From Amoebidium appalachense (lineage: Eukaryota; Protista; Ichthyosporea): a stretch of 64,000 nt of DNA. Made by a program: the position numbers and the translations under genes. The stretch lies in assembly GCA_963693365.1 (NCBI GenBank), contig CAVNZM010000009.1, positions 4,041,146 to 4,105,145 of the forward strand, read 5' to 3'. This document shows, in pieces, positions 31,295 to 45,837 of the stretch. The notes below the pieces were generated by a model, which was not told the DNA's origin, ran no database searches, and was given only the letters and a program-made list of their open reading frames with translations. How positions within the stretch are numbered: position 1 is the stretch's first letter; each line of letters starts with the position of its first letter.

Positions 31295-34200
31295 ATGACA
31301 AAGACTACAGACCACATACCTCTCTACCAGGCAACCGCCAACTCAGTGGAGGTGAGATGCAACCCCCCCCCCCCCCCCCCCCCCCCCTCTCCCCCCTCCC
31401 CCCTTCCCCCTTCTTTCCTCCCTTCCCTCCCCCTCCCTCCCCCTCCTGATCTCGTCCTTACACTTCCTTCCGCGTCGCGTCCTCAGTTACCTTTTATCCA
31501 ACATGTTTACCATCAGCAGCAGCTTATGGTGCTCCCCCCCCCCCCCCCCCCCCCCCCCCCCCCCGGGGGAGGCCTCCCCCCCGCCCGGGCGCCCCACGAT
31601 ACCCCTCCCCCCCCCCCCCTTCCCCCCCCCCCCCCCCCCTCCCCGCCCGCCTGGGCGCCCCACGATACCCCCCCCCCCCCTCCCCCCCCCCCCCCCCCCC
31701 CCCCTCTCCCCCACCAACACCCTATCCCCCCCCATTCGGAAGGTAAATGGAAAAAGAAAGAGAAGAAAGAAAAACGAAAAAGCCAAAAAAAAAACAAAAA
31801 AAAACAAAAAAAAAAACGTGACCTTGCACGGGTATCAGCACGTGAATGGTTAACCCTTTTTAGGAAAGGTTGCTGTGTCCTGCCTGCAACTTCAATACAG
31901 ATGGGAAGAAACAAACAATACCAGGTTTGTGGTGGTGGCAAGAAAATGCTAAAGTAATGTATGTAGCTGTACATGTTTTAACTTTCATGTTTGTGTACAA
32001 CATATTTATTTCGGCATGCACACAACTACCAACATTTCAAGAGGTTCCATATGACGACACGGGAGTAATGGATGAAGGCATCATTTAGTGTGCATGAGAT
32101 TTTAATGCTTGAAGCTTATTGGCAATTTTTTCTTACACAGCATGGACATGGACGGGGCAGTGGCAAGGTTGCTGAAGATGTTGTAAAAACAGAAGACATG
32201 CTTGAGCATGGTCGTCTTGAGGTGAGCAGCTCCCCCCTCCCCCCCCCCCTCCCCCCTCCCCCCCCCCCCCCCCCCCCCAAAAAAAAAAAAAAAAAAAAAA
32301 AAAAAAAAAAACATACACACCTCGATTTCGTTTTTTTGCCTTTTTTTCCTTTTTTTTTTTTTTTTTTTTTCCTATTTCTTTTCTTTTTTTTTTTTTTTGC
32401 TTTTTTTGTTTTTTTTTTGGGTGTGTGTGTGTGGTGGTGGTGGTGGTGGTGGTGGTGGTGGTGGTGGTGGTGGTGGTGGGGGGGGGGGGGGGGGGGGGGG
32501 GGGGGGGGGGGGGGGGGGGGGGGGGGGGGGGGGGGGGGGGGGGGGGGGGGGGGGGGGGGGGGGGGGGGGGGGGGGGGGGAAACAGAGGTAATAAGAGGCA
32601 GGAACGGAGGGTGAGAGAGTGAGAGCGACGAGTTAGAGAGATAGCGATGGCGAGAAAGAGAGAGAGATAGGAGAGGAACTTCTTAATTTGATGAACAAAA
32701 CGAATCAGGAGAGAAAGTCCATTACATTCCCACACCAGCATTTACCTTACGAATCAGCAAGACACCAAAAAAGACAAAAAAAAAACAAGTTTTAGCAATA
32801 TCCAGATTAAACTTATCGTTAAAATCATCAAAAAATGCATTGAAACTACAGGTGGAGGTGAGGCCAGCGATGGAGGAGTACCTCTGCAGCATCTGCCACG
32901 AGTTGGTGTGTGAGCCAGTCAAGACCACGTGCAGCCACTTCTTCGACCGGTGTGTGTGTGCGTGTGCGTGTGCGTGTGCGTGCGCGTGCGCGTGCGCGTG
33001 CGCACGTGTGCGTTTGTGTGCGCGTGCGCATGTGCGCGTGCGCGCGAGTGTGCGTGTGTGCGCGCGCGTGCGTGTCCATGTGTGTGTTTGTGCACGCGTT
33101 GGGCTTGTATATGTGGATCCACATGCCGTGGATGCATAAGCATTGTGTGCATGTGCCTGTGTGGAATGTGATTCGCGGGGAAAATTTTCTTTTCTTTTCT
33201 TCTCTGTTCTTTGTATTTTTTTTTTCTATTTATTCCGTCTTTATTTGGTTGTTTTTTTTTTTTTGTTTTTTTAATGGAGACGTTCCTTTTTTTCTCTGGG
33301 ATTATGGTTGTGTGTGTGTGTGTGTGGGGGGGGGGGGGGGGGGGGGGGGGGGGGGGCATGTCCTACCAAATTCGCGTGCGCGTGTGTGTGCGTGTATGTG
33401 CACGTGGCGCATGTGTGTGCGTGTATCTCTACGTGTTTAATGGTGCCTTGATGCAGGCATTTAGGCATGTGAACGCCGTGTGTAGTACGTGTCCGTGTTT
33501 GTAGGGTTGTGTTGCCTGCACGCAAGAGCTCACTTTTTTTTTTTTCCTTTCTTTTTTTTTTTGTGTGTCCTTGCACGTGCATGCGCGTGGTGCTCGTGCG
33601 CATGGTGCATATATGCACAAACTCCATGTCGATTGGGATTGACATGTGCAAGGGTTCATTTACCGATTCCATTGCCCAATACTTAATTTAAGATTATAAC
33701 CCACCAATCAGCACCTGCCTTGAGACGTGGCTTCGCCGCAGCTCTACCTGTCCCCTCTGCAAGGCCAGAGTTTGCCGTCGGGTAAGAGCCCCCCTCCCCC
33801 CCTACCCACCCTCCCCCCCCCCCCCCCCCCCCCCCACACACACACACACAAACACAAAAAAAAAAGGGGGGAAAAAAAAAAAGAAAGAGAAAGAAAGGGG
33901 AAAAAAAAAAGAAAGAGAAAGAAAGGGGAAAAAAAAAAGAAAGAGAAAGAAAGGGGAAAAAAAAATTCACAACCCCCCCCCCCCACTCCCTGTACCAACT
34001 CAACTACACACATGAGACTTCCGCTTTTTTTTGCAACGCACAAAACAAACACCATCCGGCATTTATAGCCATATATGGTGCACCATACTAACACTTCATT
34101 GGTCCACCTCGACCGATCACAGGGCAGTGTTGTGGACCGTGACCTGCTCTCTGCCGTTGAGCGCTGGTTCCCCCATGAGTTGGGCCACAGACGTGAGGAA

Positions 34201-43200: not shown

Positions 43201-45837
43201 AGGGGTTGGGGGCTTTTGGTGTGTGCCTGTGCGTGTGTGTGTGTGTGTCTGTGTGTTTTTGTGGGTGTGTGTTTAATTGTGTGTGTGCGTGCATACGTGT
43301 GTGTGGTGCGTGTGTGCGTGCATGTGTGCGCCCTTGTGATGGTGTGAACTCGTACACTGTTCCTGTGTGTGTTTGTGACCGAGAAGGGGGTATCGTGTGT
43401 GTAAACGTGTGTGTGTGTTTGTTTGTGTTTGTGTGTTTATGTGTTTATGTTTGTTTGTGTTTGTGTGTTTATGTGTTTGTGTGTTTATGTATTTGTGTGT
43501 TTGTGTTTGTGTGTTTATGTGTTTGTGTGTTTATGTGTTTGTGTTTGTGTGTTTATGTGTTTGTGTGTTTGTGTTTGTGTGTGTGTGTTTTGTGTGTTTG
43601 TGTGTTTGTGTGGGCATGCGCGCACGTGCCTGTGTATGCCTGTGTGCTTGTGCTAGTACGTGTGTGCGGGGGGGTGTCCAGGAGCACAACCATCGTTGTG
43701 TAGGTAGGTATGTGCAGTACGTGTCAGTGTGCGTGTTGCATACTTTCATGATCCTTTGAGTTCAACATTACGGGAAAATACTGATGTAGTAGTGGTGGGA
43801 TATATTATCCTATCTTTTTTATTTCAGTTTACTCGAACTTCGAGCAGCTGTTGCACTCGTGTGCTTTTTTGGTTTTGAAATTTGTCTTCCCGAATTTCTT
43901 GTTAGGAAAATAATTGGAGTGCTAATCATCGTTCTGTCCTCCCCCCTCCCCCCCCCCCCCCCCCCTCCCCTCCCCCCCCCCCCCCTCCCCTCCCCCCACT
44001 CCTCTCCCGCCCTTTCCCAACTTTTTTTAGGGGCGGGGTGTTGAGTCAGCCACCTACTACAACAACCTGCTGCCCGGTTCGTTCAGGGTTCGTTCCTCTC
44101 CCCCCCCCCCCCCCCCCCCCCTCCCCCCTTCGCCCCCTGCACGCCGGTGCGCACACACATTTACACAAGACAGGCGCCCACGCGCACACACACCCACACT
44201 CTCACATACGCACACACGCGCACACACCCGTCGCTGTCCATTGGCAAAGAGGCAACCAACCAATGTCACCCCAAATATATATACTCGAGGAGAAGACACC
44301 CCCCCCCCCCCCCCCCCCCCCCCCCCCCCCCCCCCGCTTCGTCCCCTCCATAAAAAAAAATCAAGAACAAACACACAACACCAGTTCATGTCGAGACAAG
44401 ATGTCTTGTCCCCATTAATGAATCACCATAAAGCCCACCCCAATCACCACATCTACTCAGCAAGAACACCACTACGAAACCCTCCCCCCCCCCCCCCCCC
44501 TCCCCCCCTCCCCCCGCCCCCCGCCCCCCTCCCGTACCAAAAAGTTGAAATTTCCGCGCACACAGGAGGAGAACAGGCGTTGGGACACCCTTGCCCAGGG
44601 CCGTATGGAGGTCACTGACGTCTACTGCAGCCGGTGCAACGTAAGAGACCCCCCCCCCCCCCCCCCCCCCCCCAACCCCCCTCCCCCTTCCCCCCCCCCC
44701 CCCCCCCTTCCCCCTACCACTCTCTCTCTCTCTTCCCCTCTTCCCCCCTCCCACCCCCACCCTACAATAGAAACAGAAACAAAATATAAATCAATAAAAA
44801 ATAAAATAAAAATAATATTTAAAGATTTCCCCTCCGGCCGTCGGTACACTTGAGCCTCTAATCACTCACAAACTCCAGTCTCCCATGGCACCGACCCTAA
44901 TCACATATCCAGTTTCTGTGTAGAAGACTTTTGTTTTTCTCTCCGTGCTTTCCACGTCATGCTTGAATGCTACCGCTGAAATCCGTACCTGCATTTATTC
45001 GTGGTAGTAGTTGTAAAAGCTTTTGGTCTCTTTCTTTCTTGCATTCTTCCTTTCTTTCTTTCCCCCCCCCCCCCCCCCCCCCTCCCCCCCCCCCCCCCCC
45101 CCCCCCCCCCCCCCCCCCCCCCCCCCCCCCCCCCCCCCCCCCCCCCCGCGGGGTAAGTCGACATTATGCACAGTAGTCACCTGATTTTTCGTAACGTGCA
45201 ATGTGTGTTACGGGGCATTGTCGAGCGCTTGCTCAGCTCTCAAGTTGTGTTTTAACAGTTTCCCTAGAAAATGTCATGTAGAAGGTGATAGGTGCAGATT
45301 CTAGTTGGGCAGACGAATCTATACCTTCCTCCCCTCCCCCCCTCCCCCACCCCCCCCCACCCCCCGGGGGCGCCCGAGGCATCCCCGACCACCACCGCTA
45401 TAACATCACCCATCCCCGTTTATGCCTCTGCCTCACCGACCCACACATGTATGCAAACACGCATTGCAAGTGAGAAAGCCATACCCAATGGCACCACTTA
45501 CTCACTCACATACTCCCTCTACACACACACACACACACACACACACACACACACATGCGCATGTGCGGGCACACCGTGGCACACACACACGCACACGCAC
45601 ACGCACATGCACACACGCACACACACACACACACACATGCACACGCACACACACACACACACACATGCACACACACACACACACACATGCACACGCACAC
45701 ACACACACACACAGGCGCAGGTTGGGTGGCGGTTTGTTGGGGCTGCAGCACGCAACGGGGAGCCACGCAACCAGATTGGACGCTTTGGACTGGTGGACTC
45801 CCAGGTGGCAAAAATTCGAACCCTGGTTCTCCTTTAA
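31295..45837 (+). CDS. Multidomain protein, ~640 aa: RING finger - PCMT/PCMTD-like SAM-binding domain - two tandem Yippee-like Zn-binding domains
   Basis: Exons: 31295-31351, 32141-32221, 32852-32949, 33712-33781, 34123-34241, 35086-35155, 35761-35830, 36528-36594, 37534-37681, 38229-38340, 38758-38822, 39452-39541, 39848-40012, 40842-40926, 41376-41497, a small exon from 41801 (end 41840 or 41810, inferred), 42159-42272, 43058-43170, 44031-44087, 44566-44640, 45715-45837 (TAA). Probable 5'-UTR intron 30710-31240. [147 protein letters not shown]. Yippee-1: [36 protein letters not shown]. Yippee-2: [41 protein letters not shown]. Confidence 0.85.
37231..37533 (+). repeat. Degenerate ~40-bp tandem repeat (about 7 units), most units containing C(A)CTAAC, running into a 3' splice site
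   Basis: Consensus approximately GCATTATAAACCACTAACCATCTAAAATCACACACCCCT. The last unit ends at the acceptor CTTCCAG (37533). Confidence 0.8.

What the first reader, a model, noticed from the sequence alone, without database searches (positions are those of the whole stretch)
31295..45837. RING-PCMT(D)-Yippee-Yippee fusion: candidate single-chain E3 ligase for isoaspartate-damaged proteins
Seen: about 21 short exons buried in low-complexity introns splice into one ~640-aa frame carrying a RING finger, a full isoaspartyl-methyltransferase-fold domain and two Yippee-type Zn domains. The RING-to-PCMT junction is phase-consistent, and the PCMT-to-Yippee junction lies inside a single exon (39848-40012). 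Established: PCMT1/PIMT binds L-isoAsp and repairs it through a succinimide. Animal PCMTD1/2 join the same fold to a SOCS box to recruit Cullin-5. Yippee domains share the beta-tent fold with Mis18 and the cereblon thalidomide-binding domain, which reads C-terminal cyclic imides. YPEL5/Moh1 associates with the CTLH/GID E3 ligase. Inference: this protein links damage recognition directly to E2 recruitment without a cullin, a convergent route for clearing aged proteins. I know of no described protein with this architecture, but could not search for one.
Basis: partly seen in the sequence, partly recalled or inferred. Interest (0 to 1): 0.9.

Follow-up and report, generated by a model that had tools for sequence, protein, structure and literature searches.

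The report
One-chain ubiquitin ligase for damaged proteins
A spliced gene, with relatives in several single-celled eukaryotes, joins a RING finger, a domain related to the human reader of age-damaged (isoaspartate) proteins and, as predicted from the exon model and relatives, two Yippee-type pocket domains, so it likely tags damaged proteins for destruction without the scaffold the human system needs.

Summary
The gene is real. Spliced contigs in 4 of 4 laid runs join the exon after the RING to five methyltransferase-fold exons. The 3' half rests on splice sites, contig length and homology; two junctions there and the start codon are unresolved. Eight full-length relatives have the same RING-PCMT-tent-tent order, five from named euglenozoans; their PCMT domains form one branch with the window's (99/99). 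The domain is PCMTD-like (best solved relative human PCMTD1), keeps the AdoMet motifs, and has Asn where PCMT1 has Thr and PCMTD1 the blocking His. The tents are YPEL5-like, not cereblon-like. The same PCMT type is fused to BTB in 30 of 52 scanned relatives, so reader and ligase module have been coupled in several ways. Best reading (0.55): a cullin-free RING E3 that uses AdoMet-bound PCMT as an isoAsp trap. No activity was tested, both substrate motifs have diverged, and the window's RING has Asp at zinc ligand 5. No paper describing the family was found.

The parts
31295..31351 (+). candidate first coding exon (ATG 31295); in frame with 32141 only if 31864-31924 is skipped
31864..31924 (+). 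candidate exon with alternative start ATG 31901, also in frame with 32141
   Evidence: contigs hold 523-699 nt upstream of 35086 against 368 nt for exons 32141-34241, so further 5' exons exist
32141..32221 (+). N-terminal exon before the RING
   Evidence: AG/GT ends, phase 0-0
32852..32949 (+). RING first half (ligands 1-5; Asp at ligand 5)
   Evidence: weak U-box/RING hits; aligned to 8 homologues
33712..33781 (+). RING second half (ligands 6-8, E2-face Trp and Pro, Lys after the last Cys)
   Evidence: zf-RING_2 E 7.6e-5
34123..34241 (+). helical linker between RING and PCMT
   Evidence: its 3' end is the loose end before 35084 in 4 of 4 runs
35086..35155 (+). PCMT-fold N-terminal helix exon
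   Evidence: covered by spliced contigs
35761..35830 (+). PCMT-fold exon (LPR motif)
   Evidence: covered by spliced contigs
36528..36594 (+). pre-motif I exon (FNVSAP; Asn at the Thr/His channel position)
37534..37681 (+). AdoMet motif I and post-I exon
   Evidence: PF01135 E 1.2e-9; joint to 38229 GT..AG in 4 of 4 runs
38229..38340 (+). PCMT exon at the place where 8 of 8 homologues carry a 130-190 aa insert
38758..38822 (+). motif II exon (YDRIHAGA)
   Evidence: sequence, homologues
39452..39541 (+). motif III exon
   Evidence: sequence, homologues
39848..40012 (+). fusion exon: PCMT post-III strand, linker, first CxxC of tent 1
40354..40400 (+). unresolved small exon of tent 1 (9, 30 or 47+10 nt options)
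   Evidence: options differ by under 4 bits
40842..40926 (+). tent 1 exon
   Evidence: splice sites and alignment to homologue profile
41376..41497 (+). tent 1 exon with second CxxC
   Evidence: both Cys and Gly invariant in 9 of 9
41723..41735 (+). candidate 13-nt micro-exon that restores the frame and puts an aromatic residue where homologues have one
   Evidence: best-scoring of the enumerated candidates; inferred
42159..42272 (+). end of tent 1 and linker
   Evidence: frame chosen by homologue profile
43058..43170 (+). tent 2 first Cys pair and HxW hairpin
   Evidence: top six-frame hit, E 3e-4
44031..44087 (+). tent 2 exon (AxxxN)
44566..44640 (+). tent 2 QG loop and second CxxC
   Evidence: E 0.02 in six-frame scan
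45715..45837 (+). last exon: GWxF, GRFGL, stop
   Evidence: E 0.009 in six-frame scan
46295..46300 (+). AATAAA, likely polyadenylation signal
   Evidence: only one within 860 nt after the stop; fits contig length

Best explanation
The gene encodes one chain with a RING finger, a PCMTD-type methyltransferase fold and, by exon model and homology, two Yippee-type beta-tents, and it likely works as a cullin-free E3 ligase that would hold isoaspartate-damaged proteins in an AdoMet-loaded, probably non-methylating site and ubiquitylate them. Shown: RING side spliced to PCMT exons, domain order in orthologues, fold assignments on a homologue, intact AdoMet motifs. Inferred: the RING recruits E2-ubiquitin; Asn at the channel position and the changed post-III strand turn the enzyme into a binder, as His does in PCMTD1; tent 2, whose pocket-side residues are conserved, is a second receptor for a peptide end or modified residue, while the faster-changing tent 1 packs against it as Mis18 tents pair.
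For: Spliced contigs. Eight full-length homologues with RING, PCMT and tent regions at 30-43% PCMT identity; one branch on the PCMT domain alone, 99/99, although the window lacks their insert. RING core kept in all: of 8 ligand positions the window differs only at one, and E2-face Trp and Pro are in 8-9 of 9. Best solved sequence relative of homologue P0104 and of PCMT-BTB P0017 is human PCMTD1 (E 4e-20 and 5e-27 against 1e-9 and 2e-20 for PCMT1). PCMTD1 binds isoAsp peptides and proteins only with AdoMet and does not methylate (PMC12590147). 40 of 52 scanned relatives carry BTB (30), RING (9) or MIB_HERC2 (1) beside the PCMT domain. Both tents of P0104 match beta-tent structures (Z 12.7 and 13.8; tent 2 alone Z 14.7, rmsd 1.4, 98 aligned to YPEL5); YPEL5, FAM72A and cereblon tents all act as E3 receptors (PMC13355314, 10.64898/2026.09.19.752822).
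Against: No activity was tested. The channel residue is Asn, neither the Thr of PCMT1 nor the His of PCMTD1; the His after SAP is lost in 9 of 9 RING-type sequences and post-III Pro is replaced, so the ligand may not be isoAsp. The Diplonema member has lost the pre-I Ser motif altogether. The window's RING has Asp at ligand 5 and Lys for the Arg that 8 of 8 homologues have after the last ligand. The window protein was never folded or searched whole; folds come from homologue P0104 (pTM 0.48). Human PCMTD1 and eukaryotic PCMT1 were not in the tree. Ubiquitylation by PCMTD1 itself is undemonstrated (PMC12590147).
Confidence: 0.55

Rival explanations
1. It is a single-chain E3, but the PCMT fold reads something other than isoAsp (another acidic or modified residue, a protein end) or acts as an AdoMet sensor, and the tents choose the substrate.
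For: Both substrate motifs differ from PCMT1 and PCMTD1 while AdoMet motifs are invariant; the Diplonema member lost the pre-I motif but kept RING and tent 2; tent 2 has its own conserved set (W559, Q593, G594, W612, F614, R630 in 8-9 of 9).
Against: S-A-P of pre-motif I, the LPR motif and the PIMT-specific N-terminal helices are kept in 8 of 9; the nearest characterised relative binds isoAsp.
Confidence: 0.22
2. Writer-reader in one chain: the PCMT domain is an active methyltransferase that drives cyclic-imide (succinimide) formation, and a tent captures the imide for the RING, as PCMT1 and cereblon do as separate proteins.
For: [quoted passage not shown]
Against: Tent 2 is closer to YPEL5 and has no Trp at the two cage positions around the loop Gly (cereblon positions recalled); restoring Thr did not make PCMTD1 active (PMC12590147); YPEL5 does not share cereblon ligands (PMC13355314).
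Confidence: 0.11
3. The RING of this copy is weak or dead and the protein is a receptor or repair enzyme that docks on another ligase such as GID/CTLH, or the RING serves only its own turnover.
For: Asp at ligand 5 and Lys at the position after ligand 8 in the window copy; YPEL5 and FAM72A tents dock on CTLH; the homologue model also gave weak GID4 matches (E 3.5e-4).
Against: All 8 homologues keep Cys at ligand 5; an Asp-substituted RING class exists and most tested plant RINGs with substituted ligands are active (PMC6969932, passages).
Confidence: 0.08
4. The tents belong to a separate downstream gene, or the long form is a mis-joined model.
For: Two 3' junctions need an unconfirmed small exon; tent-only records exist (P0162, P0163, P0182).
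Against: Exon 39848-40012 spans the boundary; contigs extend 1480-1559 nt past the last laid exon; 8 homologues have the same order; two of the tent-only records cluster at 90% with the full-length Diplonema protein.
Confidence: 0.04

Closest known systems
Human PCMTD1/PCMTD2 (CRL5-PCMTD1, PDB 9oma; PMC12590147)
   Same: PCMT-fold domain of the same subtype by sequence and fold; non-Thr channel residue; tied to ubiquitin machinery
   Different: Own RING instead of SOCS box, Elongin BC and CUL5; Asn instead of His in the channel; two beta-tents; RING N-terminal, 640-920 aa
PCMT1/PIMT repair methyltransferases (PF01135)
   Same: Fold (Z 24, rmsd 2.4, about 200 aligned for homologue P0104), motifs I-III
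   Different: Channel Thr to Asn, post-III VP to G-x, outside the canonical group in the tree (bacterial-type rows only), multi-domain
YPEL5/Moh1 and FAM72A beta-tent receptors of GID/CTLH
   Same: Tent 2 fold and sequence (E 1.1e-5, Z 14.7); W82 kept
   Different: Tandem and fused to a RING; YPEL5 anion-binding T63, H66, Y84 read Q, M, F here; family-specific HxW hairpin
Cereblon CULT domain with PCMT1 (10.1101/2025.03.24.645050)
   Same: Beta-tent fold; a PCMT-fold protein and a tent in one degradation route
   Different: Tryptophan cage not kept; no LON domain or DDB1 link seen
PCMT-BTB(-BACK) proteins of green algae and amoebozoans (found here; no description found)
   Same: Same FN(I/V)SAP-type PCMT domain (30 of 31 with Asn)
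   Different: BTB would recruit CUL3 rather than an E2; no tents seen in the top five families

Membership tests
RING-HC E3 ligases | Eight zinc ligands in cross-brace spacing | tested here: inconclusive
   Window has C-C-C-H-D-C-C-C: 7 of 8 canonical, Asp at ligand 5; 8 of 8 homologues have Cys there, though several have Asp at ligand 8
RING-HC E3 ligases | E2-face hydrophobic residues and basic residue after the last ligand | tested here: met
   Ile, Trp85, Pro93 present, Lys96 where homologues have Arg (roles of these positions recalled)
RING-HC E3 ligases | E2-dependent ubiquitin transfer | not testable with these tools
   needs in vitro assay
PCMTD1/2 | PCMT-fold domain closer to PCMTD1 than to PCMT1 | tested here: met
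   exon 37535-37681 E 7.7e-5 against 0.0048 (where an archaeal PIMT and another methyltransferase score higher); homologue P0104 E 4e-20 against 1e-9
PCMTD1/2 | His blocking the AdoMet-substrate channel | tested here: not met
   Asn in window and 8 of 8 relatives scored; position taken from alignment to PCMTD1 H63 and PCMT1 T57
PCMTD1/2 | C-terminal SOCS box (BC-box, Cul5-box) | tested here: not met
   C-terminal half is two beta-tents; no SOCS family among Pfam hits of homologues
PCMTD1/2 | AdoMet-dependent isoAsp binding without methylation | not testable with these tools
   needs binding assay
PCMT1/PIMT | PF01135 above cut-off with motifs I-III | tested here: met
PCMT1/PIMT | Pre-I Thr and post-III (Y/F)VPL substrate motifs | tested here: not met
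   FNVSAP and RFGTL in the window
Yippee/YPEL | Beta-tent fold with two Cys pairs, twice | tested here: met
   four Cys pairs in the model; folds on homologue P0104; PF03226 above cut-off in 5 of 8 full homologues
Yippee/YPEL | YPEL5 basic pocket (R41, T63, H66, Y84, K95) | tested here: not met
   four of five positions mapped are changed; K95 lies outside the aligned stretch
CULT (cereblon) | Three-tryptophan cage | tested here: not met
   only the GW tryptophan is kept; loop reads (L/M)xQG; cage positions recalled, W99/Y101 equivalence from PMC4287342 passages

The most novel reading that the evidence does not exclude
This family is a fused PCMT1-cereblon pathway: the PCMT domain converts isoAsp or C-terminal Asn to a cyclic imide, tent 2 reads it through a new His-Trp-Trp-Phe cage, and the RING ubiquitylates the substrate, a self-contained writer-reader-ligase for spontaneous protein damage that predates or parallels the animal system.
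Probability: 0.11. Interest if true: 0.92.

Novelty: new variant of a known kind. Interest (0 to 1): 0.72.

Why it matters
Whether isoaspartate is a true degron is open: human PCMTD1 binds it, but ubiquitylation has not been shown and needs a five-subunit neddylated complex. A one-chain RING version would allow the test with E1, E2 and a single protein. The survey also shows the same PCMT subtype joined to BTB, N-terminal RING and C-terminal RING in protists, and to a SOCS box in animals, which suggests that routing isoAsp proteins to degradation is old and widespread and not an animal invention. Tent 2 adds a beta-tent pocket of unknown ligand to a fold that is central to degrader chemistry.

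Tried and rejected
No whole genome is held, so a separate canonical PIMT in this organism and the organism's lineage could not be checked. No run was on record as RNA; the runs laid behaved as spliced transcript sets. Only 34690-38500 could be laid, so junctions 3' of 38340 and within the RING stay untested by reads. Word-based search with exon 37535-37681 found none of 292 candidates; with the full alignment it returned 10 proteins and only one family member, so it is too weak for a census; the tent-2 alignment returned 7. The window's own protein was not seen in any protein search. No loci search with tent 2 was possible. ESM Atlas gave only sub-0.9 leads: At4g08330/Yippee/FAM72 tents for the C-terminal half, unnamed and lipocalin-like clusters for the homologues' insert. 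Exon 36530-36592 alone found no solved relative. The PcF hit on exon 43060-43170 (E 0.058) was rejected as chance. Reading exon 42159-42272 in its other open frame scored lowest of 11 models (78.3 bits). Tree: P0130, P0183, P0101 and the BTB proteins P0018, P0029, P0034, P0040, P0148 were left out; the program flagged long branches (P0053, P0123). Earlier findings: nothing by place, words or sequence. No complex was predicted.
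Full report
Observation. The region 31295-45837 holds short exons in C-, CA- and CT-rich introns. 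Exon-wise translation and phase bookkeeping give an unbroken frame from exon 32141 to exon 39848-40012. Of 19 exon pieces scanned, two hit RING models weakly, one hits PCMT above the curated cut-off (E 1.2e-9) and none hits Yippee. Contigs of four public runs from two studies, laid on 34690-38500, cover five exons and no intron; in three runs one contig carries all five in order, the joint 37681 to 38229 is GT..AG in 4 of 4, and in 4 of 4 the letters ahead of exon 35086 are the end of exon 34123-34241, the linker that follows the RING. The runs are not on record as RNA, but exon-only cover shows spliced molecules. The two long contigs (2470 and 2725 nt) have 523 and 699 nt upstream of exon 35086 and 1480 and 1559 nt downstream of exon 38340. 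The RING-side exons need 368 nt; the remaining coding exons need 1031-1079 nt, and the distance from the stop to the single AATAAA at 46295 makes up the rest.

The plain splice path breaks frame twice in tent 1. The exon at 40354-40400 ends in the wrong phase; 9-nt, 27-nt, 30-nt and 47+10-nt options all give open frames within 4 bits of each other. Between 41497 and 42159 one more base of phase is needed; the best candidate is a 13-nt exon at 41723-41735. Models are 640-656 aa in 22-23 exons. The start is 31295 or 31901.

Family. A search of 1.84 billion representatives with the motif I exon gave 272 hits, 150 listed. I scanned 52 of the 150, chosen as the longer ones, against Pfam with only the best five families shown each: 8 have an N-terminal RING before PCMT (7 full length, 1 fragment), 30 have BTB after PCMT (29 above cut-off), 1 has two PCMT domains and a C-terminal RING, 1 has MIB_HERC2, 12 have other or no partners. 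An eighth full-length member came from a cluster look-up, Diplonema papillatum KAJ9470935.1, named only as an isoaspartate methyltransferase. Named members are Euglena gracilis, Urceolus cornutus, Apiculatamorpha spiralis, Papus ankaliazontas and Diplonema papillatum; two are kinetoplastids by NCBI taxonomy, Urceolus cornutus was not found there, and that the rest are euglenozoans is recalled. Three members are unnamed records. PF03226 passes its cut-off in 5 of 8 and is weak in 3. A profile of their C-terminal halves ranks four window exons first of 2397 six-frame pieces and scores spliced models at 78-86 bits. On the PCMT domain alone (54 rows, 227 columns) the window and 7 homologues form one side of a branch at 99/99, although the window lacks the insert that 8 of 8 homologues carry (155-209 residues against 22 over the same span). 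Named PCMT-BTB proteins come from green algae and the amoebozoan Copromyxa (5 of 9 looked up carry names); the C-terminal RING form is from Pelomyxa. The lineage of the window's organism was not determined.

The PCMT domain. For homologue P0104 the best solved relative by sequence is human PCMTD1 (E 4e-20), then PCMT1 (1e-9); the same holds for a PCMT-BTB protein. By fold PIMT enzymes and PCMTD1 are tied (Z 24.0-24.5). Motif I, the post-I acid and motifs II-III are kept. PMC12590147 reports that a Thr to His change blocks the AdoMet channel of PCMTD1, which binds isoAsp peptides and proteins only with AdoMet and does not methylate; the text I saw gives no residue number, and alignment places it at PCMT1 T57 and PCMTD1 H63. 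That position is Asn in the window, in 8 of 8 RING-type relatives scored and in 30 of 31 BTB-type relatives where the motif was found (33 classed); His occurs in P0002, P0056 and P0101. Post-III Pro becomes a variable residue after a Gly. The Diplonema member has lost the SAP motif. So cofactor binding is likely, catalysis doubtful, and isoAsp as ligand plausible but unproven.

The RING. The window has Asp at ligand 5 and Lys after ligand 8, where 8 of 8 homologues have Cys and Arg; other core positions are kept. A review states that most tested plant RINGs, including ones with substituted ligands, are active (PMC6969932, passages; it did not show me which ligand is Asp in RING-D).

The tents. 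An AlphaFold2 model of P0104 (pLDDT 73.5, pTM 0.48) matches beta-tents at 447-561 (Z 12.7) and 579-701 (Z 13.8). Tent 2 folded alone (pLDDT 91.8) ranks YPEL5 first (Z 14.7, rmsd 1.4, 98 aligned), then Mis18 (13.7) and cereblon (12.4, 12.1) among 48161 chains; by sequence profile YPEL5 E 1.1e-5, bacterial cereblon 0.67. Tent 2 is 17-34% identical to homologues and has a conserved set (His557 7 of 9; Trp559, Gln593, Gly594, Trp612, Phe614 8 of 9; Arg630 9 of 9); tent 1 is 10-23% identical and keeps little beyond its cysteines. YPEL5's anion-binding T63, H66, Y84 (PMC13355314) read Gln, Met, Phe here, and two of the three cereblon cage tryptophans (positions recalled) have no counterpart. Tent 2 probably binds a ligand of its own; tent 1 may be a pairing partner, as Mis18 tents dimerise (PMC4818781, abstract). 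Both roles are inferred.

Mechanism and rivals. Most likely (0.55) a cullin-free E3 with an AdoMet-loaded PCMTD-type trap for isoAsp and a second receptor in tent 2. Rivals: E3 with another ligand (0.22); writer-reader for cyclic imides as PCMT1 and cereblon (0.11); dead RING or adaptor (0.08); split gene (0.04).

Novelty. Search for isoaspartyl methyltransferase + RING + yippee returned 0 papers; PCMTD1 + isoaspartyl + ubiquitin ligase listed 5, none on non-animal forms by title; four broader searches listed nothing on this family or on PCMT-BTB (judged from listings). The library lacks most subscription papers. The parts and the idea of an isoAsp-reading ligase are known; the single-chain architecture and the spread of PCMT-BTB and PCMT-RING couplings appear undescribed. 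I file it as a new variant of a known kind, interest 0.72.

Papers seen. PMC12590147: abstract, introduction, results (parts 1-3 of 9), Discussion, passages; its supplementary figures, which may number the channel residue, were not read. PMC13355314: passages and section 9. PMC4287342, PMC6969932, 10.64898/2026.09.19.752822: passages. 10.1101/2025.03.24.645050, PMC4818781: abstract and outline. Others: search listings only.

Noticed in passing
P0104 220-350 and equivalents in P0012, P0047, P0059, P0067, P0123, P0136, P0183: All 8 full homologues carry an all-beta insert inside the PCMT fold that the window gene lacks. The P0104 model gave weak Foldseek matches to GID4 (E 3.5e-4 and 9e-4, TMt about 0.5) and nitrobindin (matched range not shown), and Atlas leads under 0.9 to lipocalin-like clusters. 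It could be a third receptor domain; it was not folded alone.
   Followed up: partly
P0017, P0137, P0005, P0013, P0062 and 25 more: PCMT-BTB(-BACK) proteins, 30 of 52 scanned, in green algae and an amoebozoan: candidate CUL3 receptors for isoAsp, more widespread than the RING form; no paper found.
   Followed up: partly
P0056 (Pelomyxa schiedti KAH3759527.1), P0055, P0002, P0105: Other fusions of the same domain: two His-type PCMT domains plus C-terminal RING; MIB_HERC2-PCMT; two PCMT plus kinase; EF-hands plus two PCMT.
   Followed up: no
P0123, P0136 N-termini: Two members have an extra SAM-like N-terminal region before the RING (weak Pfam hits).
   Followed up: no
P0163, P0162, P0182: Tent-only records; the two Diplonema ones cluster with the full-length protein, P0163 resembles the window's tent 2 closely and has no upstream domains in its record.
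   Followed up: partly
window 8374-13832 +: Exons of a USP4/USP15-like deubiquitinase (exon 11148-11306, E 9e-20); ordinary neighbour.
   Followed up: partly
window 18980-26096 +: Exons that read like an FAD-linked D-lactate dehydrogenase (name recalled, not searched).
   Followed up: no
window 47614-55814 -: Exons of mitochondrial trifunctional enzyme alpha (exon 49880-50074, E 3e-19 to the human protein).
   Followed up: partly
window 31295-32170 +: If exons 31295-31351 and 31864-31924 are both used, ATG 31295 opens a short frame with a CPAC motif that overlaps the alternative start at 31901: a possible upstream ORF.
   Followed up: no
window 59700-60818: High-complexity open pieces on both strands without short-exon pattern; not identified.
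   Followed up: no
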